From Podarcis tiliguerta (taxonomy: Eukaryota), in the NCBI GenBank assembly GCA_965153285.1, contig OZ229114.1: a DNA stretch of 64,000 nt; one strand, written 5' to 3'. The notes under the pieces were generated by a model. It saw nothing but the letters and a program-made list of their open reading frames with translations. It was not told the DNA's origin and searched no databases. Made by a program: the position numbers and the translations under genes. Positions 8,408-44,002 of this stretch are shown in pieces. The number at the start of each line of letters is the position of its first letter. Position 1 is the first letter of the stretch.

Positions 8408-8549
8408 NNNNNNNNNNNNNNNNNNNNNNNNNNNNNNNNNNNNNNNNNNNNNNNNNNNNNNNNNNNNNNNNNNNNNNNNNNNNNNNNNNNNNNNNNNNNN
8501 NNNNNNNNNNNNNNNNNNNNNNNNNNNNNNNNNNNNNNNNNNNNNNNNN
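8408..8549. other. Assembly gap (142 N)
   Basis: Run of N. Confidence 1.
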
Positions 8550-13560: not shown

Positions 13561-14612
13561 CAGTAGGAGGCTGGTGTGACTTGTGTGTTGCACAACAGCA
13601 AGAAAGCCCAGCCAGAAATGATGTCAGAGACTTCAGGTCAATGCCCAGGAATAGACAACCATTTAAATATGGAAGGAAAGTAATTGATACTAAACTTAAT
13701 ATGCCTATTTTTTTTTATTTTTTTTAAAAACAGTGTTGAGAACTTATGTGTGCAAACTCTTGCATTCTCACTGTCTCTTCAGACATTTAAAAATAAGATC
13801 ATGGTAACTTTTTCAATGTGTAGAAGAAGCTAAACAGGTGAGAACCTTGTATGCACTCCCTTGAAGCACACATTCAGAAGACAGCTCTGTTCAGAGCCTC
13901 TTTCCCTTTCAAGTACACTTCACCATCTTTCTGTGGTTAATTGTAGATGACTTGAATCTGTACAGTTGGCAAGAGGACAGAGTTCTGATTCATGGAGCTG
14001 TGGTGATAGCTTTCTATTTAACTGTCTGGCAGAGGGTGTATTATGCTATTATGCTCAGTCCCTAGTGGCTAGTTGCATTCGGGAGTGAATTATTCTTCCT
14101 CCTGGGTCTGATCTCTGTGCTTGAGGTCCACGCTTTCAAACACTTATTATTCCCATCGCAACCTCGGCACATATGCAAGAAAATGGCCAATTGAATCTGT
14201 AGATAGCTGTTACTGCTGGCGATTTTTTCCTCACTGCCAGTAAACCTGACAAACAGAATCAAGGAAGGAGCCTGTTTTCAGAGGAGGCAGCCTGTTCTAG
14301 CAACAGCAGGATTGCTGACAAAACTATTCAGAAGTGACCTTGCAGCACATCAACATTTATTCATTCCACTGCACCGCCCCATTCTCTGTTGTGTAGTGCA
14401 TAGATTGCACCTGTGGAGAGCATCTTCGAGGTGCTAGGCAGCACATTTTTATAGATCTACTTGGCAGAGCTCCTCCAAGTTTGGCAGATTCCTCTTCAAT
14501 CCTCAATTCCCATTAAGGCAGTAGGATTCCTGTACCCTCACTGCTGAATGCTGCAGACTGAACAATTTTCAACAAGCTGATTCTTCTTTCTCATTGTGTA
14601 TTTCTGGTGCAG

Positions 14613-14729
14613 GTTTTGGAAGTGGTGCGCTCCAACTACGACACCCTCACCCTAAAGTTGCAGGATGGGCTGGACCAATATGAACGTTACTCGGAGCAAC
14701 ACAAAGAAGCTGCTTTCTTTAAAGAACTG
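14613..14729 (+). CDS. ARMH3: Armadillo-like helical domain-containing protein 3 (C10orf76), penultimate coding exon
   Basis: Polypyrimidine tract + CAG acceptor; 117 nt, phase 0-0; encodes [39 protein letters not shown]; GTGAGT donor. Recognised as the ARMH3 C-terminal region, and synteny with KCNIP2 agrees. Confidence 0.95.
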
Positions 14730-16681
14730 GTGAGTTTCAGCGCTTGAGTAGGAGCCTCAAAGTCTTGGCCCATGGTCTACTTTGCAGAGCAGCCACAGCA
14801 CAGCCAGAACGTCCCTTTTATTATCCAGAAATATGACTGGCACAGGTGACAAACTAGTGTACTTTTCGTTAGGTCACTTTGAACAGGATGCTGGCGAGAC
14901 ATGATTAGGGAAAGAAGGTTTTACCTCCATCTCAGGGTTTAGTGCACTCTTTTTCTGCATGTTCCTAAAGGAGAGAGCCAGAGAAATCTCGTGCTGATTG
15001 AACCTGCCAGCAGCTCATCAGAGGAGCATGTTCCAATAGTTCCATTGACAGAACATGAATAAGGGTGGTTTTTCATTTGAATTTCCCAAGAGGGAAATTG
15101 CCAAACACAGAAGCTTGAAACAGCCATGTTCAGAAACAGCCATGGTTGTCCTGATCTGTGCATTCATACAAGCAGGTGGCATATTCCCCTTCCCTTGTAC
15201 TATGTTCTCTGCTACTTTTTGTGCATCAGCTGTGTGTGCTGCCTAGGTTCTCTCCTCCCCCCCCCCTTTCAGGAATTGTTGCTGCTCAGTATGCCCTGCT
15301 GTTCACTAACTTTACATTTCCCTTGATTAAAGTGCAGATTTGCTTTTTCCAATTTTCTGAGATTATACTTTTTCCAGAATCCATCCTCCTAAATGCTAGT
15401 AGTTTAGATTCAGTTTCACCAAGTATAGCTAACACAATTGCCAGCAGTCTTCCTTCCTCCAGTTTTTCTATCAGAAATGTTCAAATGGACTCTCTTCCCA
15501 GTTGAATGAAGACAAGGAAGCTTTCGTCATTATTCCTCATCTGATGATTGAACAAATGCAACCAGTTTAATCCCTATTTCTCTAGAGACTTCTTGAGCCT
15601 CTTAAAAGCCAATCTCTGAGAACTACAATAAATGTTTTGTGTATTCCCTGAGTTTGCTATCAAAGCAGAAGGGAAGAATCCAATTGACCTGGTTTGGTTG
15701 TATGTTGACAAAATCCCATTATTTACCAGTTAAGATCTGCTGCCCTATTTAATAGTAAGGGGGTACATACTCTGAACCAAGCATGTTCAACATTAAATTA
15801 TGGAAGTGTCCCAGATCTGCACTGTTTATTTTGATTTCTGTATTCTGAATTTTTATGCAGAATTATGTACATTTATCTATGACTACAATAGAAGGTGATC
15901 TAGATGGAAACACAAAAGGTTCAACTGGTTCAGCATTCTGTTTCTTACAGTGTCCCTGAAGGCAGCTGTCATGACTTAACAGACCTATCACCCATGGCTT
16001 TTCCCAGTCCTCTTTTAAAACCATTGAAACCAGTGGTCCTTGCTACATATCATTACAGTAAATTCCATTTAAAAACACAGAGAAAGGAGGAGAGTACAAG
16101 CTCTTAAGTTTCTTCTCCTGGCTTGTGCAGGATGCAGGAGAAACCTTATTGGGCTTTAAAGCAGTAAACATCCATCCAGGACTCAGGGCTTGCACCACTT
16201 GTGGTTCAGTTATGTACTGAAAGCTGCATGCCTGGGAGCTGTTCACAGTCCTGCCAACCTTGCATCTAGCCAATTTCCCACTCTGTCTTGCCACTGCTAT
16301 TGGACCTCCACCAGCTCTAATCCTGACCTCGCCACCACATCCTTCCTCCAATTTACCTCTGGGTTGAATGCACCCAATTCCCGAGAGCCCTGTCTTGGCC
16401 CACAAGCTCTGAACCACCCGAGACACAGAGATAGACTGAGGAAGCAAATTTTTCAGCCATCTCAACACCTGGGTAGATTGCAAGCAGCATGAGAGAGATT
16501 CATAGGCTGTTTGATCTGACTGAACATCCTTGTGGTAGTTGAAAGTCTTAGTTTGTTGGTAGGCTTTCTTCCCCGAGCCAATCACGTTGCAACAAAAGCT
16601 CACCTATCAGGGGTCTCCTTCAGTGCCAGAGGTGCTGGTCTGTGTAAGTGGCATATGAAATGACTGTTCTCTCTCACACAG

Positions 16682-17885: not shown

Positions 17886-20800
17886 AGTAGGGAATTAATT
17901 AGTTGGGAGTATCTCACAGCATTTTAGGGGGAAAGAAGCCTGGGATGGGGCAAATCAGTGTTCTACATCTCTGGCATTCTGTTCTATACTCCTGTCCACC
18001 AAGGGCTGCAACGGCAGATTACAGGACATGTTTGTGCGGTCAACTCCCCCATCAATTTTTGTTATACTTATTCTAGAAATATAGGACTGTGCTCTGTTGA
18101 GAAGCCAGGAGTTGGTCATACCTTTGGTACTGTACTCAGACTGGAAATCTCAATCAGATGAGCTCTAAAATTTAGAGTCTGAATTCTTAATTAAAATGTT
18201 TGGCACAGTATCTGTTGCAGGGGTTTTCCTCCTACCTGCATATTATCTTCCAGGCTTCAGAACGATGCCCAATGGATGCCAACAGGATTCGGCAAGCAGG
18301 TGTACAGGCACCCTTACTGGGCTCTTTCCTGGTGTATGTTGGTTATTATTCAGAACAGACTGCCATCTTGTGTGATTCCTCTGTTCTTTTTGGACTCCGA
18401 TGAGAACCTCCTTTCCCCAGTACGTTGATGGGTCTCAGCCATGCTTAGCAGTGGACTTTGAGGCCAGAATTTCAAGGAAGAATTCTCCCCCCCCCCAGAA
18501 GAAACACTATGAACACCTTGCTGCTGATATAGCACCTGTAAGATGATGTATATAGAATTCGGCAGTAAGGGGCCAGGGAGGGGTGTGGCGCCTCTGATCA
18601 CTCTATTGTGTGCAGTGTATCTTTTTGTGCTCTTTTGGGGGAGAGGTAATAAATTATTACTACTCTTAACATTTTCTTGGTGCTAATGCTGTGCTTGCCG
18701 CTGTACCAAATACACAAACGACATCGTCATTGCTAAAGAGCACTTGCCATCTTCAGTGAAGTATTTAGGATGGGATGTGCGAGGTGGAGAGAAGTTGGGT
18801 TTGAAAATCTGAAAACTGCAAGCTTAATTCTTTGAGTCCTTTTCAGTTTGTTACCTGCAAGCATTTTCTTTGTCAAACTAGTTGCAGGGGTTACCAACAT
18901 AGAGCACATTTGACTTCTGCGGCACTCACCGGGTCCCCTCCCCAGCCGAAATTGGGTTTGAGAGATGTATTACTTTGCAGCCAATAGAAGAGGTTGTGAC
19001 TGAGTGGGTGGGTGGCAACCCCTGCTCAGGAGCCTTTTACTTCTCTCCCATGTGACTACATGGAATCTTTTCATTTGTTCATGTGCCTTCTCTTGCTTGG
19101 TAGGCAGGGTCATCATCCACAGAATTAATCAGGAAGAGAAGCTCTGTGGTCCTATACTTTGGGCTGGGAGTGGGGTCTTCACAGAGGTCATCAGAGTTAT
19201 TTTCAATAAGGTGTGTGTTTCTGAGCTTCCCCCTTTCCAATCTGCATTCTGTAGTTAGTTCTCAGTTTGTTATAGGAGTACCCTTTGTTTTAGGATGTAC
19301 TTCCTAGTTTATAGTGATTGGTATTATTATGAATTGATGCCTTTGGGTTTATCTGACTCAGTTGGAAGCATCTTGGATTGTCGTTTGTCTCCAACACTGT
19401 CATTTCTCTTGCACAACAGACTTTGGCTTGCATGGTGGAACTCCCCCCTGCAGCTCCCTGAAGCAGATATGGGGAGGGTGGGGAGAGCAGAGGCAGAAGA
19501 AGTCTCATTGTGCAAGTGGAATGTCCCTCACTCAGCTTTGGATACAACACAATGTCATTTTTCTACTGGAATTCTTTGAGCAGTTGTGCACTTCCTATTT
19601 GCATGCATATCCCTTGATGCTTGTGACAAAAGGTTGGCTGGGGGAAGATGCTACCCTCACTATAAGCACATGTCAAGCAATTCAAGGTGGTTTGGGTCAA
19701 GGGTCTCTGTTATGAAGTGTGCAGTGTGCACGTAATGCAAGCTTGCACATGCAACCTTGGCACCTCTTTTTAGGATCTTTTGTGCTTGAGCATGAACACA
19801 CTCTGGAATTTGGCACTCCAAAGGTCGTCATGGACAATGAAATCTCAAGTAATTTTTTGTATTGGAAGGAATTACTGTAGCATATTTGATGCCGATGTTC
19901 ACAACACACTAACAACAGGCTAAGTTTAAAAGAGTTTAAAGCTAATAAAAGGGTTAAAACTAATGGTGCAAGCTTTCAGTTCGCAGAAATATACAACAAA
20001 GGAAGAATGGTAACCAGAAATTGAGGAGGGGGGAGCTGCCTAGCCACAGCAATAAAAGGAAATCATTCTAAAGCACCAGTCGTACCACAAAAACTGCAGG
20101 AGGGGGCTTGTGCAGCACACTTTGGAAAAAGATGATGAACACAATTTGGCGATATTAACAAATGAGGAAGAAAATTTGCGATGACTGGCAAAGGAAAAGG
20201 ATTTCAGTTCTGGAGAGCTTGAACTAACGGTATGAGCTATTTGGCTTTCTTAACAGAAAACAGGGAAGTAAGTCTTTTTTAAATAGTGGAAATGCTTGAA
20301 GTGGTTTGTGAGCATAAAAGAGAGAAATGTGGTGGAGAAAATTGCTGCTGAGGATGTGCTATACAAATCTGTTTGGAAGAAATGTGAAGGGAAAGGCAAA
20401 AAAAATGCATGGGGTGGGGAGGGATTTTTAGAGCAGTAGGTCAAGCATGGAGAAGGGAAAGATCTGTTGCCAGCTTAAAAACACTGGCTCAGAGTATTTT
20501 GGTAGGGGATGCAGAGGAGAGTTTGGTAGTGTCATCCTGGAGCCATTCTGGTACAGCAAAAGGAACAGAAACAAGGAAAAATAAAATGAGGTGGTGTAAC
20601 GAAGGGGCATATGGCCTGTTCTGTGAAGAAGAGGACACAGTTTCTGACACCTGCAGAATGGGTGGGTGGATCTGAGAGTCACAGATTACAAACTTAGTGA
20701 AGATCTTGGGAGATAGAGTCCAACCCTTGAAGATAAGAAGCCCCTAACTCTGAGCAAGCTCGAAGCAGCTTTTACGACCAAATCTGAGTTTAATATTTAC

Positions 20801-21214
20801 AATAAAAGGCTAAAAATATTGTCTTCCCAAAAGCATTGGGTGCTAAAAGTTTCTAAATCATGCCAGCCAGGGAGATTGTCCTAAAACTCTGATAAATGCC
20901 TTTTAAAGGAGTAACTTCTTTCTGATGTCCAGGTGCGGAAGGGGAATCACTATTTTCTGGTGGGAGCCTGTTGCCACTGAAACTTCTTAATTAGCTATGT
21001 GGGGAAAACAAAAGAGTGACATTTTAGGCATCTTGGCTTAACACTTCCAGAAAGAGTCTGATGCTCTTGTGTTTTACTTTTAAATTTACAAGTGATAAGG
21101 AAGGATGTCAAGGAGACAGCTGCCAATGTATTTAGCAGGACACATTGCAGGTGGTTCATTCCTTGTCTTCCAGGTCATAACAGAGCTTCCATTCTCAGGT
21201 GCAGGCTACAATAC

Positions 21215-24140
21215 TTAGAGCAAAATCTGAATTTAGGGGTACTTACTATGCCTCCAGGGAGGAGGCGAAGGCGGCGTAGAGACAGGAGGCAAAGGCGGGG
21301 TTGTCGGGCTGGCGTCCTGGTAAGATTGCAGAGGAGTCCATCTAAACCACCGCTCCCTAGCATATTTCTTGCTAATGTGAGATCTCTTGCCAACAAGATG
21401 GATGAATTGAGGCTGCAGGCAGCAAAGAACAGCCTTGTAAAAGATTGCTGCGTTTTATTTGTCATTGAGACATGGCTTCAACCGTCCATACCAGACACAG
21501 CTATTCAGTTGGAAGGCTGTGCGGTACATCGTCATGACCGAGGCATGGACTTCGGAAAAACCAAAGGAGGGGGGCTGTGTGTATATGTGAACAAATGCTG
21601 GTCCAATAATTCGAAGACTGTGGGCAGTCACTGTTCACCGGATTTGGAATATGTGGCTGTTAAATGTAGACCAGCCTATCTCCCTAGGGAGTTCACAGCT
21701 GTTATGTTAACTGGTGTGTACGTGCCACCAGATGCCAATGCCAACCTGGCTTCGGGATGCCTGCAGAGCCTTATCAGCAGCCAGCAAGACAAGTATCCTG
21801 AAGCTGTGCACATCATTGCGGGAGACTTCAACCATGTTGAACTTAAAACAGTGCTCCCAACGCTCTATCAGCATGTGAAATGTCCCACAAGAGGGGACAA
21901 GACACTGGATAAAGTTTATTCGAATGTAAATCACGGCTATAGGGCTTTACAGCTGCCACACTTGGGCCAGTCCGACCATATGTCTCTGTTCCTGGTACCA
22001 GCATATATCCCACTTAGGAAACGGGCTCCCACAATATTAAAATCTGTTAAAATCTGGCCTGAAGGTGCTATTCACCAGCTGCAGGACTGTTTTGAGAGAA
22101 CCAATTGGGATATTTTCGATCATACAGACCTGGAGGAACACACGGCGGCAGTTCTGTGCTATATCAATCATTGCACAGACACTGTCACAGTAAATAAATC
22201 CATCCGGTTTTACCCCAATCAGAAACCCTGGATGAATAGAGAGGTCCAGTGCCTGTTGCGGGAAAGGAACAGGGCTTTTAGGTCGGGCGAGGTGCAGCTT
22301 TACAGTGTGGCAAGAGCAAACTTGAAGAGGGGTATTCGACGGGCAAAATTGGATTATAGGCTGAGGATTGAGGATAATTTAAGGAGCAACAACACAAGAC
22401 AGATGTGGCAGGGGATTCAGCATATTACCAACTACAAACCTAACCTTGGTGCTGTCGACGGTGACCCTTTGCTGGCGGAGGAGCTTAACCTCTTCTTTGC
22501 TCGCTTCGAGAGGGAGCCACCTGAGACGCCGGTATTACAGCCACCAGCCCATGGGGGCCCCTCATTCACGGTAAAGGAGCATGAGGTGAGACAGGTATTG
22601 AGGATGGCGAATCCGAGGAAGGCGGCTGGACCTGATGGCATCACTGGAAAGGTGTTGAAGGGCTGTGCGGATCAGCTGGCGAGGGTCTTTACTAAGATCT
22701 TCAATAAGTCCTTACACCAGTCTATTGTCCCACCCTGCCTGAAGTCGTCAACTATTGTCCCTCTGCCTAAAAAATCCACAATCAGTAGTTTGAATGACTA
22801 CAGACCAGTTGCACTGACTCCAATCATCATGAAGTGTTTTGAGAAACTGGTGCGCCGTCACATTATTTCCTGTCTTCCATCAACTTTTGACAACCACCAG
22901 TTTGCATACAAGGCAAATAGATCCACAGAAGACGCTATCACCACCACTCTCCATGCTGCTCTGTCCCATCTGGAGCAGCCGGGGAGTTATGTGAGGCTGC
23001 TGTTTGTGGATTTTAGCTCTGCTTTTAACACTATCCTCCCCCATAGACTGGTGTCCAAGCTAGAGGCGATTGGACTCTCCAACTCCACCTGTCTCTGGGT
23101 TTTGGATTTTTTGTCAGAACGTTCTCAGAGGGTTAGAGTAGGGTCACATATGTCCACAGCCCTTAGCCTTAACACCGGCTCACCACAGGGTTGTGTGTTG
23201 AGTCCCCTGCTCTATGCTCTCTATACGTATGACTGTACAGCCATCTATTCCAGCAACAAAATCATCAAGTTTGCTGATGACACTACGGTGGTAGGGCTCA
23301 TTTCGGGAGGGGATGAGTCCGCCTATCGGGACGAGGTGGAGCGGCTCTGTGTTTGGTGTGGAGAGAACAATCTGGCTCTTAATACGGCTAAGACCAAGGA
23401 ATTGGTGGTGGATTACAGAAAAAAAAAGGCGGACATTCAGCCCTTGTATATCAACGGGGAACGGGTGGAGAGGGTGGCGGAATTCAGGTTTTTGGGAGTA
23501 ACTATCGATCAGGGCATGACTTGGAGCGCAAATACCACTGCTCTGGTGAAGAAGGCCCAGCAGAGAATTTATTTCCTCAGACTTTTGAAGAAGAACAATC
23601 TGAGTGAGAGACTGCTGGTGTCCTTCTACCGAGGCTCCATAGAGAGCATTCTTACATACTGTATTTGTGCTTGGTTCTCCAGTTGTACAGCTAGGGAGAG
23701 GAAGGTGCTCCAGAAGGTCATAACCACAGCCCAAAGGATTATTGGTCATCCTCTCCCATCTTTGGAAGAACTGTACGGTTCCCGTTGTCTTAGGAAAGCA
23801 AACAACATCCTGCAGGATTCATCTCACCCGGGACACAGTCTGTTTGCACTACTGCCTTCTGGCAGGAGATATAGAAACATCAAGTCAAGGACAAATAGAC
23901 TGAAAAACAGTTTCTATCCAAGAGCTGTGGCCTTTTTGAATGCTGTAACTCGATAGTGTGACCTGGGAGTTTGATGGGTGTTGGTGTGGGTGTGGCTGGA
24001 ATGTGGTTTGTTTGGTTGTTGTTGTTGTTTTGCTTTTGTTGTTTTTAAGGGATGGCATCCAATTTCGTTGCACTTGTGCAATGTTGCACTTGTGTAATGA
24101 CAATAAAGAGTCTATTCTATTCTATTCTATTCTATTCTAC
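21215..24140 (+). mobile_element. Rex1/Babar-clade non-LTR retrotransposon, ORF intact, probably 5'-truncated
   Basis: Single long APE+RT ORF, then a short GT-rich 3' UTR, AATTTCGTTGCAC...AATGACAATAAAG and a (TCTAT)5-TCTAC tail (24111-24140). The 5' boundary is approximate and there is no convincing TSD. Confidence 0.88.
21248..23956 (+). CDS. LINE polyprotein: AP-endonuclease + reverse transcriptase + C-terminal DUF1891-like region (902 aa from first ATG)
   Basis: Arg-rich N-terminus. APE motifs LANVRSL, IETWL, GGGLCVYV, VYVPP, AGDFN, TLD, SDH. RT motifs KAAGPDGI, DYRPVALT, FVDFSSAFNT, GSPQGCVLSPLLY, FADD (23270-23281), FRFLG. C-terminal VKKAQQRIYFLR...FYRGSIESILTY...RTNRLKNSFYP. No stops or frameshifts. 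Confidence 0.93.
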   Translation: MPPGRRRRRRRDRRQRRGCRAGVLVRLQRSPSKPPLPSIFLANVRSLANKMDELRLQAAKNSLVKDCCVLFVIETWLQPSIPDTAIQLEGCAVHRHDRGMDFGKTKGGGLCVYVNKCWSNNSKTVGSHCSPDLEYVAVKCRPAYLPREFTAVMLTGVYVPPDANANLASGCLQSLISSQQDKYPEAVHIIAGDFNHVELKTVLPTLYQHVKCPTRGDKTLDKVYSNVNHGYRALQLPHLGQSDHMSLFLVPAYIPLRKRAPTILKSVKIWPEGAIHQLQDCFERTNWDIFDHTDLEEHTAAVLCYINHCTDTVTVNKSIRFYPNQKPWMNREVQCLLRERNRAFRSGEVQLYSVARANLKRGIRRAKLDYRLRIEDNLRSNNTRQMWQGIQHITNYKPNLGAVDGDPLLAEELNLFFARFEREPPETPVLQPPAHGGPSFTVKEHEVRQVLRMANPRKAAGPDGITGKVLKGCADQLARVFTKIFNKSLHQSIVPPCLKSSTIVPLPKKSTISSLNDYRPVALTPIIMKCFEKLVRRHIISCLPSTFDNHQFAYKANRSTEDAITTTLHAALSHLEQPGSYVRLLFVDFSSAFNTILPHRLVSKLEAIGLSNSTCLWVLDFLSERSQRVRVGSHMSTALSLNTGSPQGCVLSPLLYALYTYDCTAIYSSNKIIKFADDTTVVGLISGGDESAYRDEVERLCVWCGENNLALNTAKTKELVVDYRKKKADIQPLYINGERVERVAEFRFLGVTIDQGMTWSANTTALVKKAQQRIYFLRLLKKNNLSERLLVSFYRGSIESILTYCICAWFSSCTARERKVLQKVITTAQRIIGHPLPSLEELYGSRCLRKANNILQDSSHPGHSLFALLPSGRRYRNIKSRTNRLKNSFYPRAVAFLNAVTR

Positions 24141-24862
24141 TTTGTAACATTCCCTCTTTCTGTTGCTACTGTACTGTACACTGGGTTTTTTCCCCAGCAG
24201 AACTCATGTGTTCACACAGCATAGTATTAGAGGCAGTGCATTAGGCCCAAGGCAAAACTTGGGTTTGATTATTTTGTTGACTGGCCTTCCTTTTATCCTG
24301 TCTGGAACCACAGCTGCCTCCCAGGCAGTGGTTTGTCCCTTGGGAGATATGGAAATTATGTCGCTGCTAGCAGAGGCCATAGAAAGAGAAAGAACTCAGA
24401 GCTGTGAATTAGTGATTCTAGATTAGTTAGCACAAATCTCTCTCCAGTGGGGTCTCCCTTATTCTGAGCCATGACCCCTGTCTGAGACAGCTGTAGCTTT
24501 TCATCTCTGCTAATTCCGCTTGGATTTTCCTCCATTCCTTCCACCTGATGCTGGCTCAGACTCTTTAGAGACAGGATATGTTTAGCGCTAATGAGGGAGA
24601 CTAAGATGGGGCTTGTGGTGGAGAATTTCGACAGATCTATATGGAGCACTTGAATAAATTTTATAATGGTTAATTTATAGCTGTCTTTGCCATCAATTTA
24701 GCGGCCTCTGAGACTCTGGAGTTGCCAGGTCTTAAGTGGAGTGGCAGAAGCCAGAAGACAAATATTTTAACTGCATATAATGACCTAATCTTAGGAGGGA
24801 GGGGGTATGTACTACAAAACATGAAAGTGGATGTGCCTATTTTTTAAACTTATATGTGATCG

Positions 24863-25010
24863 AAGCAGTACTATTTTTCGGGTGGGGTGTGTGTGTGTGT
24901 GCCAGAACTCAACACGAATGTCTCCCTTGTTCTTTTATAATGGCAATGGTGCCCACCTGAGAGGTGCCAGAACTGAGTTCAGGTGAGTTCTGGCACCTCT
25001 TTTCTCCTAG
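24863..25010. mobile_element. Short non-autonomous DNA element fragment
   Basis: Internal inverted pair AGAGGTGCCAGAACT...AGTTCTGGCACCTCT and a repeated GTGCCAGAACT motif. Confidence 0.55.
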
Positions 25011-41300: not shown

Positions 41301-42249
41301 AACTCTATAGAGGTGTGGCTCCCCCACGCCACCTGTTGGCCACCATGGAACAGTTCAGTTTCTCCACGGTGGTATCGTAGACTGGAATCAATTTGGCTGG
41401 CGTTTTAGCAATACAGCAGAGACCAGAATATGAGCAGTACTCATTAATTAAGATTAATGGTGTGGGTCGAGGAAAGTGAAGAAGATGCGTTATCTGCATT
41501 TCCAGGCTTCACGGAAAGATGCCCTCTTTTTTAAAAAAAACACCAAAATTTTCCTAGCATTTTTTGTTTTAAGAAAAACATGAGAATTACCGAAAGGAAC
41601 AACCAAGAAGCCAAGAGTGAGATGGTCTATATGGCAATCTAGCCAAGAAGCTGTTACTTGCATATAAATCTCCTTTCCAACTTACCGGGATATGCCCTGC
41701 AACTTATTCCTGGACCACTGTGATGCATTTTCTTTTGTGGCAACCCTGGGCCAGCAGAGTCCAGCGTCCCTTGCTGTAAACATGCTCTGGTCTCTATAAA
41801 GGTCCTCATTAGTCAAGTGAATGGGTATTGGACCAGGACAGGCTGCAATCCATCTAGAGCGCACTGCTGGAACGAAATACATCGTGCTGTGATACCTCTG
41901 ATCCAGCATCTGAAATCCATCCCAGGCAAGTGTTCTCTTAGCTTAGCTACTGGCTCTCTGACAGCTGCCCGCTGTCTGGCTATTGGGCCTCCTCAGTGAG
42001 GAACTTCCTTTAGTCAGCGTGTCCCATATATCCCTACCACCAGCCTTTCTAGCTGGTCTTAGGACCTGGCTAGCTCCTGCGCTCTTAGAGGATGCAACAG
42101 GCAGAATTCAACCGGTGAAGCTCTCCCACCTTGGGCTTTATTATTTTTTCATAACAACGGAGCCAGTTTTTTTAAAGAGAGGTGGAAGTGGCAACCCCAC
42201 CCCAAGGACTGGTTCCTTCTAAGACCTCGGAGTCCCACCTGCTCCTCTG

Positions 42250-43400
42250 AAAGCCTTCTGGAGCGGATTGTACTGGCGAGGGCCGTCGGCGAAGCGTGCG
42301 CACGTGCGGCGCTACGCAGCGCGCGCTGGGCGCAGGGAGGCGCCTTCGGAACGGCGAAGTCTCAGCGGGGGGCCCCATTCTCGGCCTCTGCGAGCGCAGG
42401 TGGACGGGCTTGATTTGCATAGTACCCGGCTGGAACTCTCCCCTTTTGCTCGCGGCTCCTCTGCTCCAGGATCTCCGCGCGAGGCCTGGTGGGCGGGTGC
42501 GCGCCTCGCCTGCCCCCGAGGGGGCGGTCTCCCTGCACGCCTTCGCTCTGAAACTGTGGGAGGGCGTCGAGGAAGCGACCTCGCGACGCGGGCGCGCGTA
42601 TTTGTGTACCGGCGCACGTGTCTCCCGGCCTCAGGAGACACGTGTCTAACTGACCCCCCCCCCCCCCCACTTTTTTTCATACCTCAGTTTCCTAGCCGGC
42701 GTGCACGATAGAAAACCCCACCCTCCCCTCCCGGGAAAGAGAGTGTTAGTTCCAGCGTGAAGCGCCACCCTCGGCGTGGGGCGGTACAGAAGACGGGAAG
42801 GACCAGGCGCGGAGTCTCGCTCGCCTCAGGGGAGGCAATCTCTTTCCCCCTTAACCCGGTGTAGAAGCCCGCCCGTGTGAACGGGAGGAAAGCGGCTGTG
42901 CGCAGAAGCTGGCGGGGGAGGTGGAGAAGGCAGTCGGAGGAGGAGGAGGGGAGAGAGCGGGCGCTCGCTTCTCCTGTTGCCGGGGAGCTGGACGCCGCTT
43001 GCCCCGGCCCCGCGCCCCGCCGGGAGGATCTGCCGAGGGCGCCGGGGGGAAGGAGGGGAGGGAGGAGCTGGATCCCGGGCGCCGGAGAGGAGGACAGCTA
43101 GGCGAGAGGAGGCACGCAGTCGGTGCCCGTCCCGTCCCAGCGCCCCGGGGCGTCTCCGCTCCGCAAGATGCGCGGCAAGGATAGGAAAGAGAGCCTCTCC
43201 GACTCCCGCGACCTCGACGGTTCTTACGACCAACTAACCGGTGAGTTCCTCCCGGGCTGGCAGGGCGCTCGGCTCGGGGGCGCTGCGGGAAAGGGTAGCA
43301 TCCCTCTAGCGGCAGACTACCTGGAGCAGGGTAGAGGTCCCGGGTCTAAAATGTTCCGGCTGAACTTCACACACGCACCAGTGGCCCTTTGTGCGCCCTC
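42250..43400 (+). promoter_or_regulatory. KCNIP2: CpG island, KCNIP2 promoter and 5' UTR
   Basis: Abrupt high-GC, CpG-dense segment around the first coding exon. GC boxes at 42491-42496, 42521-42527 and 42778-42784. CACGTG E-boxes at 42301, 42615 and 42639. Confidence 0.9.
43168..43240 (+). CDS. KCNIP2: Kv channel-interacting protein 2 (KChIP2), first coding exon
   Basis: ATG at 43168; MRGKDRKESLSDSRDLDGSYDQLT(G) matches the KChIP2 N-terminus; 73 nt, phase-1 GTGAGT donor at 43241. No downstream exons recognised in the window. Confidence 0.95.
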
Positions 43401-43538
43401 CCCACTCTCTTGGGCGACCTGCAGTCCCTGTGCAAACTTCCACTTAGCCAAAGTGGGCGCTTGCTCGATGTCGACTTCGTCCCTTGAAATCTGGCCCCGT
43501 GGCTTACCTAGGGGGCACCTGGAGCATGTTGGCTGGAA

Positions 43539-43582
43539 GTGTGTGTGTGTGTGTGTTTGTGTGTGGTGTGTGGTGTGTGTGG
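43539..43582. repeat. (GT)n microsatellite, imperfect
   Basis: Directly visible. Confidence 0.9.
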
Positions 43583-44002
43583 TACATGCTGGAGAAATGA
43601 GTCTTCTTTATTCAGCGTTGGAAGATGCACCTTGCTCCAGACAATCAGAACTATTTGCTGCCTGGATTAGGTGTGGTGCCCCCTTTGCAAAACTAAAGGG
43701 AATTCTTGATGAACAGTCTCTCCCAACTCCCGTGTCCAAGTCAAGGCAACCTGAGTGAATGGACGGACCCACCTGAGAAAGGCAAGTGAGCACCTGGAAG
43801 ATAACACAGAAGGGGGTTCATTTAACTCCCTTTGCCTACTCCAGACACCAAGGTAAAGCATCAAGATGCATCTCAGGTGTGTCTGGCTTACTAAGGGAAG
43901 GCATGCCCCCTGGGGCCTTCGTGGTTTCCCCACACCTGGAAAAGGGCCTAGTAGATAAGGAACCCCTTGCACAGGGGACTAGCAAAATCCCTCCAGAGCC
44001 CT

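What the first reader, a model, noticed from the sequence alone, without database searches (positions are those of the whole stretch)
21215..24140. Intact, young Rex1/Babar-type LINE in a lizard genome: candidate active element and possible horizontal transfer
Seen: a 902-aa ORF (from ATG 21248) with all APE and RT catalytic motifs, no stops or frameshifts, abundant undecayed CpG and a clean (TCTAT)n tail. Every other LINE in the window is a short fragment. Established: this layout (Arg-rich leader, PxLPSIxLANVRSL, FADD RT, short microsatellite tail) is characteristic of the Rex1/Babar clade, best known from teleost fish and patchily distributed in tetrapods. Inference: a recent insertion from a still-competent family, possibly acquired horizontally.
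Basis: partly seen in the sequence, partly recalled or inferred. Interest (0 to 1): 0.7.

Follow-up and report, generated by a model that had tools for sequence, protein, structure and literature searches.

The report
Active fish-related Rex1 retrotransposon in lizard
This is a very young, slightly shortened copy of a Rex1 jumping gene that is present in some lizards of the species and absent in others; its closest known relatives outside wall lizards are in medaka fish, so the family likely crossed from a fish-type lineage long ago rather than recently.

Summary
The 902-codon frame, endonuclease and RT motifs, raised CpG and (TCTAT)n tail are real. The copy is not intact: it lacks the first 227 nt of a 3,094-nt element, including the 5' end and 49 codons. 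The family is young and mobile: at least 77 copies, 12 near-full copies differing by 0.26%, 8 of 9 full-length copies with an open 951-aa ORF, and an empty site at this locus in another individual. It is shared with Podarcis muralis (98% aa) and three coded organisms, so it is no recent single-species arrival. Its nearest non-lizard relatives are medaka (Oryzias) Rex1 proteins, 77-80% identical, sister with 100/99 support and under half as far as the host's other Rex1 families are from their nearest non-lizard rows. An old horizontal transfer is likely (about 60%) but unproven: the decisive synonymous distance could not be computed, and two supporting arguments failed their controls. Rex1 transfer from fish into squamates is already published for sea snakes. 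Side lead: Rex1 elements begin with a TISU/YY1-like motif that holds the start codon.

The parts
21243..24139 (+). Rex1 LINE copy, 5'-truncated (nt 228 to the end of a 3,094-nt element plus tail)
   Evidence: 99.7% to full-length copy L008, match begins at element nt 228
21248..23956 (+). Open frame of 902 codons = residues 50-951 of the single ORF; 3 private changes, one E>K at 22574
21260..21307 (+). Arg-rich leader (likely nucleic-acid binding or nuclear import; inferred)
   Evidence: sequence; shared with fish relatives
21350..21979 (+). APE-type endonuclease domain (LANVRSL, ETW, GDFN, SDH)
   Evidence: motif places; PF03372 E 0.003, below cut-off
22766..23506 (+). Reverse transcriptase domain, FADD at 23270
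   Evidence: PF00078 residues 507-753
23522..23647 (+). DUF1891 / ALKBH8_N (PF09004)
   Evidence: residues 759-800
23957..24110 (+). 3' UTR with terminal stem-loop (about 24062-24104) and AATAAA (24102-24107)
   Evidence: fold z -4.07, 0 of 200 shuffles; stem shared with host families B and C
24111..24139 (+). (TCTAT)n microsatellite tail
21240..21244 (+). Left copy of 5-nt target duplication TACTT; its last 2 nt also match the element (5' microhomology)
   Evidence: empty site in run X4
24138..24142 (+). Right copy of TACTT; its first 2 nt also match the tail (3' microhomology)
18843..24209 (.). Stretch absent from a second haplotype (5,367-nt deletion allele spanning the insertion site)
   Evidence: joint 18842-24210 in runs X1 and X3; flank is single-copy

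Best explanation
This is a recent, 5'-truncated copy of a Rex1 LINE family with near-identical copies across the lizard genome and an empty site in another individual, and the family likely entered the wall-lizard lineage long ago by horizontal transfer from a medaka-related lineage. Shown: structure, truncation, copy number, intact full-length siblings, presence/absence at this site, tree position. Inferred from established LINE biology (recalled): a full-length 3.1-kb copy is transcribed from an internal 5' promoter; its single APE-RT protein binds the 3' stem-loop of its own RNA, nicks DNA where the target pairs with the TCTAT tail, and copies the RNA by target-primed reverse transcription; here synthesis stopped 227 nt short and was joined through a 2-nt microhomology, leaving a copy that would not be transcribed on its own. 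Inferred and least secure: the transfer, its direction and its date (before the split from P. muralis; donor unsampled).
For: Mobility: 40 of 40 scored matches (of 580 candidates) at 99-100%; 77 exact 3' 24-mers, 0 in the control; 11 copies with the 5' end, 9 full-length, 8 of 9 with an open frame; mean pairwise difference 0.26% in 12 copies; two contigs of run X4 join 21244 to the 3' flank; this copy has 3 private changes in 2,853 nt while flank haplotypes differ by 1.0-2.2%; 8 reads each in RNA runs X23 and X24 on 21243-21620, all first mates on the minus strand, none on the flank. Origin: best named non-lizard hits are Oryzias sinensis 78-80% and O. latipes 77% over 806 aa, next 72%; IQ-TREE puts the family sister to O. 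sinensis at 100/99, path 0.26, against 0.56 and 0.63 for host families C and B; lizard monophyly rejected, p-AU 1e-77; family B's best named fish hits over the full RT half are about 60%; squamate-squamate Rex1 pairs in PMC13343379 Table S5 are 76-86% in the RT domain, the range of this lizard-medaka pair (82% over 172 aa).
Against: Ks to the medaka element was not computable (no DNA). Ks to more distant fish-type contigs (66-67% aa over the long ORF) is 1.2-1.4 by LWL85 and 1.7-4.6 by NG86, at or above the one tetrapod-teleost threshold seen, 1.25; Xenopus-Astyanax Rex1 pairs at 75-78% have Ks 1.2-1.4, so high protein identity alone does not prove transfer. Lack of old copies is not diagnostic: family B shows none either (28 of 28 at 98-100%). 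Lack of other squamate hits is not diagnostic: family B gets none either. Polyphyly also fits old paralogous lineages. The RNA reads are few, from organism B, one study, library strandedness not checked. Runs X1 or X3 may be the assembled individual. The 3' junction lay in a stretch the read tool skipped.
Confidence: 0.62

Rival explanations
1. Same active element, but inherited vertically: an old Rex1 lineage kept in both teleosts and lacertids under strong purifying selection and lost or not yet curated in other tetrapods.
For: Several Rex1 lineages look squamate-wide (Pogona, Crotalus, Tiliqua, Hemicordylus, Zootoca consensus starts resemble host families B and C by eye); Ks to fish-type contigs is at the threshold; both absence arguments failed controls.
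Against: Path to medaka 0.26 is under half that of families B and C to their nearest rows and only 11 times the distance to P. muralis; the family is closer to one medaka lineage than that lineage is to other teleost Rex1; none of the 11 curated squamate Rex1 starts seen resembles it (by eye, first 400 nt only).
Confidence: 0.3
2. Recent transfer into this species, or fish DNA contaminating or misassembled into the lizard genome.
For: Copies are near-identical and the best named non-lizard hits are fish.
Against: 77 copies dispersed over the large contigs; single-copy flank joined to the element by a contig with 0 differences; empty site in another individual; 98% proteins in P. muralis; DNA held by three organisms in 7 studies; nearest fish is 20% away in protein.
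Confidence: 0.03
3. Lizard and medaka each received the lineage from a third, unsampled carrier such as a parasite; the fish is a co-recipient, not the donor.
For: Direction cannot be read from the tree; the top feature-based Atlas cluster is mostly Platyhelminthes (a lead only, no alignment).
Against: No flatworm-named protein among the 120 best hits of either search; all named neighbours are teleosts or Podarcis.
Confidence: 0.15

Closest known systems
Rex1/Babar LINEs (CR1 group)
   Same: Single APE-RT ORF, no ORF1, DUF1891, microsatellite tail; same 5' layout and PGSPWI plus Arg-rich leader as curated Rex1 consensus sequences (by eye).
   Different: The ancestral start at nt 4 opens only a 9-codon upstream ORF in this family; the long ORF starts at nt 86.
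Oryzias sinensis / O. latipes Rex1 proteins (UniRef A0A8C7YZR7, A0A8C7XV90, A0A8C7YDV2, A0A3B3I5C2)
   Same: 77-80% identical over 400-800 aa; sister group at 100/99; A0A8C7YZR7 begins MAARIDAAA, the peptide of the lizard upstream ORF.
   Different: 20% protein divergence, so not the direct donor; the medaka protein keeps the N-terminal extension in frame.
Podarcis muralis RT-domain proteins (e.g. UniRef A0A670HTC4, A0A670K6J6)
   Same: Same family, 951 aa, 98% identical.
   Different: About 14 residues differ consistently (read): separate recent subfamilies in each species.
Rex1-Snek_1 and _2 of sea snakes (PMC7846101)
   Same: Rex1 in a squamate whose closest relatives are teleost elements; reported as horizontal transfer.
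   Different: Marine host, 75-85% DNA identity to fish, transfer within about 18 My; the medaka relatives curated there belong to other sub-lineages (by eye).

Membership tests
Rex1/Babar LINE | One ORF with APE endonuclease and RT | tested here: met
   (APE by motifs; Pfam hit below cut-off)
Rex1/Babar LINE | No ORF1 (PMC13343379 section 15) | tested here: met
   only 85 nt lie before the ORF in 9 full-length copies
Rex1/Babar LINE | DUF1891 (PF09004) after the RT (as a Rex1 mark: recalled) | tested here: met
   E 5.6e-19
Rex1/Babar LINE | 3' stem-loop and microsatellite tail, no poly(A) | tested here: met
Rex1/Babar LINE | RT tree placement with labelled Rex1 references against CR1, L2, RTE outgroups | tested here: inconclusive
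   trees hold no labelled Repbase/Dfam rows or outgroup; the link to curated Rex1 is by eye
Retrotransposition-competent (source) copy | Complete 5' end with promoter and full ORF | tested here: not met
   window copy lacks nt 1-227; 8 other copies meet it
Currently mobile family | Near-identical dispersed copies and presence/absence among individuals | tested here: met
Currently mobile family | De novo insertion or cell assay | not testable with these tools
   none
Horizontally transferred element | Element tree conflicts with host tree | tested here: met
Horizontally transferred element | Ks below the 0.5% quantile of orthologue Ks | tested here: inconclusive
   closest pair has no DNA here; more distant pairs 1.2-1.4 against 1.25
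Horizontally transferred element | Absent from sister lineages | tested here: inconclusive
   not among 11 curated squamate Rex1 starts by eye; protein database lacks other squamates (control); present in P. muralis and organisms B, C

The most novel reading that the evidence does not exclude
A medaka-type Rex1 invaded terrestrial wall lizards by horizontal transfer and is still jumping, and Rex1 crosses hosts so often because its first dozen bases are a TISU/YY1 element that serves as both promoter and start codon: a host-independent launch signal on a 3-kb, one-protein element. All five host families and many fish relatives begin this way.
Probability: 0.22. Interest if true: 0.68.

Novelty: new member of a known kind. 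Interest (0 to 1): 0.36.

Why it matters
It is a compact, currently polymorphic Rex1 family in a much-studied lizard genus: a ready substrate for a first look at Rex1 mechanism (short target duplications with occasional 29-83-bp ones, internal deletions, a 9-codon upstream ORF) and a source of segregating insertions. If the transfer holds, it extends fish-to-squamate Rex1 transfer from marine snakes to a terrestrial lineage. PMC13343379 states that what makes Rex1 the most often transferred CR1-group element is unknown; the TISU/YY1-like 5' end gives a testable candidate.

Tried and rejected
Absence of older copies as a sign of invasion: 21 of 22 matches to the 5' 977 nt are 98-100% and one is 72% over 112 nt, and protein searches jump from 87-100% to under 61% (150 candidates scored in each), but family B shows the same pattern and family C has copies at 92-100%, then matches at 66-72%: rejected. 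Absence from other squamates in the protein collection: control with family B also found no squamate name in 120 rows: rejected. CpG richness as a sign of foreign origin: families B and C have o/e 0.50 and 0.46: rejected. The 18842-24210 joint as the empty site: it removes 2.4 kb of single-copy flank too and run X4 carries that flank: it is a deletion allele. A larger mobile element around the copy: none. No RNA holder listed on record. YN00 failed on all pairs. Identity with the sea-snake families: not supported by eye; Podarcis, Lacerta, Zootoca and muralis have 0 hits in that paper's supplement as held. Earlier scan notes: nothing by sequence or words. Atlas: no structure model, feature hits are leads only. 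Paper searches that found no description of this family or of a Rex1 transfer into lacertids; none linking TISU, YY1 and retrotransposons. Subscription papers (Volff 2000, Ichiyanagi and Okada 2008) and Zhang 2020 and Muller 2025 were not read and may cover parts of this.

Full report
Observation. The frame 21062-23956 is free of stops, 902 codons from ATG 21248. Pfam gives RVT_1 and PF09004; the endonuclease scores below cut-off but its motifs are in place. CpG o/e is 0.44 against 0.18-0.19 in the flanks and the tail is 5.8 units of TCTAT. The only N stretch of the window (8408-8549) is far from the finding.

The copy is truncated. The own genome (1.46 Gb, 258 contigs) gave 580 candidates; all 40 scored are 99-100% identical. 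Nine copies run 227 nt further to a common 5' end; the full element is 3,094 nt plus tail with one ORF of 951 aa from nt 86. Eleven places carry the 5' 23-mer: nine full-length copies, eight of them with an open frame, and two copies that keep both ends but lack the middle. The 3' 24-mer occurs exactly 77 times, 0 in the control.

The family is young and mobile. Twelve near-full copies differ on average at 7.3 of 2,853 columns (0.26%, range 0-16); the window copy has 3 private changes. Run X1 has a contig 18813-21272 with no difference that crosses the 5' junction; it may be the assembled individual. Run X4 (same coded organism, another study) has two contigs that run from the 5' flank at 21244 straight into the 3' flank: the empty site, on both contigs seen. 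It defines a 5-nt duplication TACTT (21240-21244, 24138-24142) that overlaps element and tail by 2 nt each. Flank haplotypes differ by 1.0% (X1) and 2.2% (X4) in the pieces listed, ten to twenty times the copy's own divergence. X1 and X3 also carry a second haplotype lacking 18843-24209, a deletion rather than an empty site. Two RNA runs of organism B (one study, about 12% of each read) gave 8 reads each on the element part, all first mates on the minus strand and none on the flank; this fits low sense transcription if the libraries are of the common stranded type, which was not checked.

Mechanism. Shown: single ORF, no ORF1, 3' hairpin (z -4.07) whose stem is shared by host families B and C, AATAAA, tails of TCTAT, TCTA or TCTATTA, graded 5' truncation. 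Of 48 distinct copies examined, 5 have duplications of 29, 59, 64, 66 and 83 bp and 43 have none of 11 bp or more. Inferred from established LINE biology (recalled): cis-binding of the 3' stem-loop, target-primed reverse transcription primed by tail-target pairing, slippage on the tail, and end-joining at the 5' side. The truncated window copy would not act as a source.

Host range. Twenty runs in 7 studies and three coded organisms hold 78-95% of the sampled words. The nearest protein cluster (98%) consists of P. muralis entries (14 named members listed). About 14 residues differ consistently from P. muralis, so each species has its own recent subfamily and the family predates their split. 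In organism B the listed element pieces differ by 0.7% and the flanks by 2.7%; selection on source copies or gene flow could explain this and it was not resolved.

Origin. The genome holds at least five Rex1 families, 45-58% alike. This one (A) is 77-80% identical to Oryzias sinensis and O. latipes proteins, then 72% or less. FastTree on 83 rows and IQ-TREE on 39 rows chosen from the best hits and the named fish make A plus P. muralis sister to O. sinensis (1.0; 100/99), path 0.26; families C and B lie 0.56 and 0.63 from their nearest non-lizard rows. Monophyly of A, B and C is rejected (the group was named after the first tree was seen). The trees are midpoint-rooted and give no direction. 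In PMC13343379 (seen: passages, sections 15 and 31, outline, supplement rows with sequences cut at 400 nt) Zootoca has two decayed Rex1 families and Crotalus, Pogona, Tiliqua and Hemicordylus nine more; by eye some resemble host families B and C and none resembles A. Squamate-squamate pairs there are 76-86% in the RT domain with Ks 0.41-0.75; lizard-medaka is 82% over 172 aa. Against: the Ks test could not be run on the closest pair; three fish-type metagenome contigs (68-70% DNA) give Ks 1.2-1.4 over the long ORF by LWL85 and higher by NG86, level with the Xenopus-Astyanax threshold of 1.25; and two absence arguments failed their controls. I put an old transfer at about 60%.

What is known. 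PMC7846101 (seen: passages, section 8, supplement hits) reports Rex1 transfers from fish into sea snakes at 75-85% DNA identity and notes divergent Rex1 in squamates. PMC13343379 finds Rex1 the most often transferred CR1-group element, nearly always between teleosts, none within amniotes, and calls the cause unknown. PMC13295347 (passages) covers Bov-B in P. muralis, not this family. Six searches found no paper on this family or on Rex1 transfer into lacertids; the library lacks most subscription journals.

Side lead. All five host families start with AAGATGGCGGCG, and 38 of 46 homologues with a complete N-terminus have MAA or MAP within the first 45 residues, 19 of these followed by a hydrophobic stretch (gene callers favour first ATGs). 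PMC2518114 (passages) describes TISU, with flank AAGAUGG, as a YY1 site just downstream of transcription starts that also directs translation from very short leaders; the full 12-letter consensus and the YY1 site of mammalian L1 are recalled. No paper held joins TISU, YY1 and retrotransposon. In family A that ATG opens only nine codons and the long ORF starts at nt 86, so here the motif would act in transcription while translation needs leaky scanning or reinitiation; this weakens the translational half of the idea for this family. Untested.

Verdict. A real, young, polymorphic, slightly truncated Rex1 copy; new member of a known kind; old horizontal origin likely, unproven, and of a kind already reported. 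Interest 0.36.

Noticed in passing
window 18843-24209: A 5,367-nt deletion allele spanning the insertion site in runs X1 and X3, with 2 untemplated letters at the joint; three alleles segregate here (filled, empty, deleted).
   Followed up: partly
L010, L011, L018, L019, L096: Unusually long target duplications of 66, 83, 59, 64 and 29 bp in 5 of 48 copies; the other 43 have none of 11 bp or more.
   Followed up: partly
L124:341-527; L125:446-1546: Internally deleted copies that keep both ends (about 190 nt and 1.1 kb); similar short 5' pieces in families B and C. Possible seeds of non-autonomous elements.
   Followed up: partly
L101, L103, L107, L112: At least four more Rex1 families in the genome; B (about 998 aa) and C (about 985 aa) are also young with many open ORFs; B has a signal-peptide-like N-terminus (hydropathy 3.3).
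   Followed up: partly
L008:1274-1360: 5' end matches a TISU/YY1-like motif; its ATG opens a 9-codon upstream ORF identical to the medaka protein's first nine residues.
   Followed up: partly
window 14610-14730: Late exon of ARMH3 (PF08427, + strand, ends at a splice donor); the insertion lies in a late intron or just downstream of the gene.
   Followed up: partly
window 42000-44000: CpG island (o/e 0.73) with a first coding exon at 43167 that resembles KCNIP2 (recalled, not tested).
   Followed up: no
window 24922-24994: Short, very high-copy repeat (read depth thousands of times the flank).
   Followed up: no
L003, L023: Copies inserted into what looks like a Sauria SINE (recalled likeness).
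   Followed up: no
P0201: A Rex1 protein is labelled as from a 'Gammaproteobacteria bacterium' MAG, likely animal DNA in a bacterial bin.
   Followed up: no
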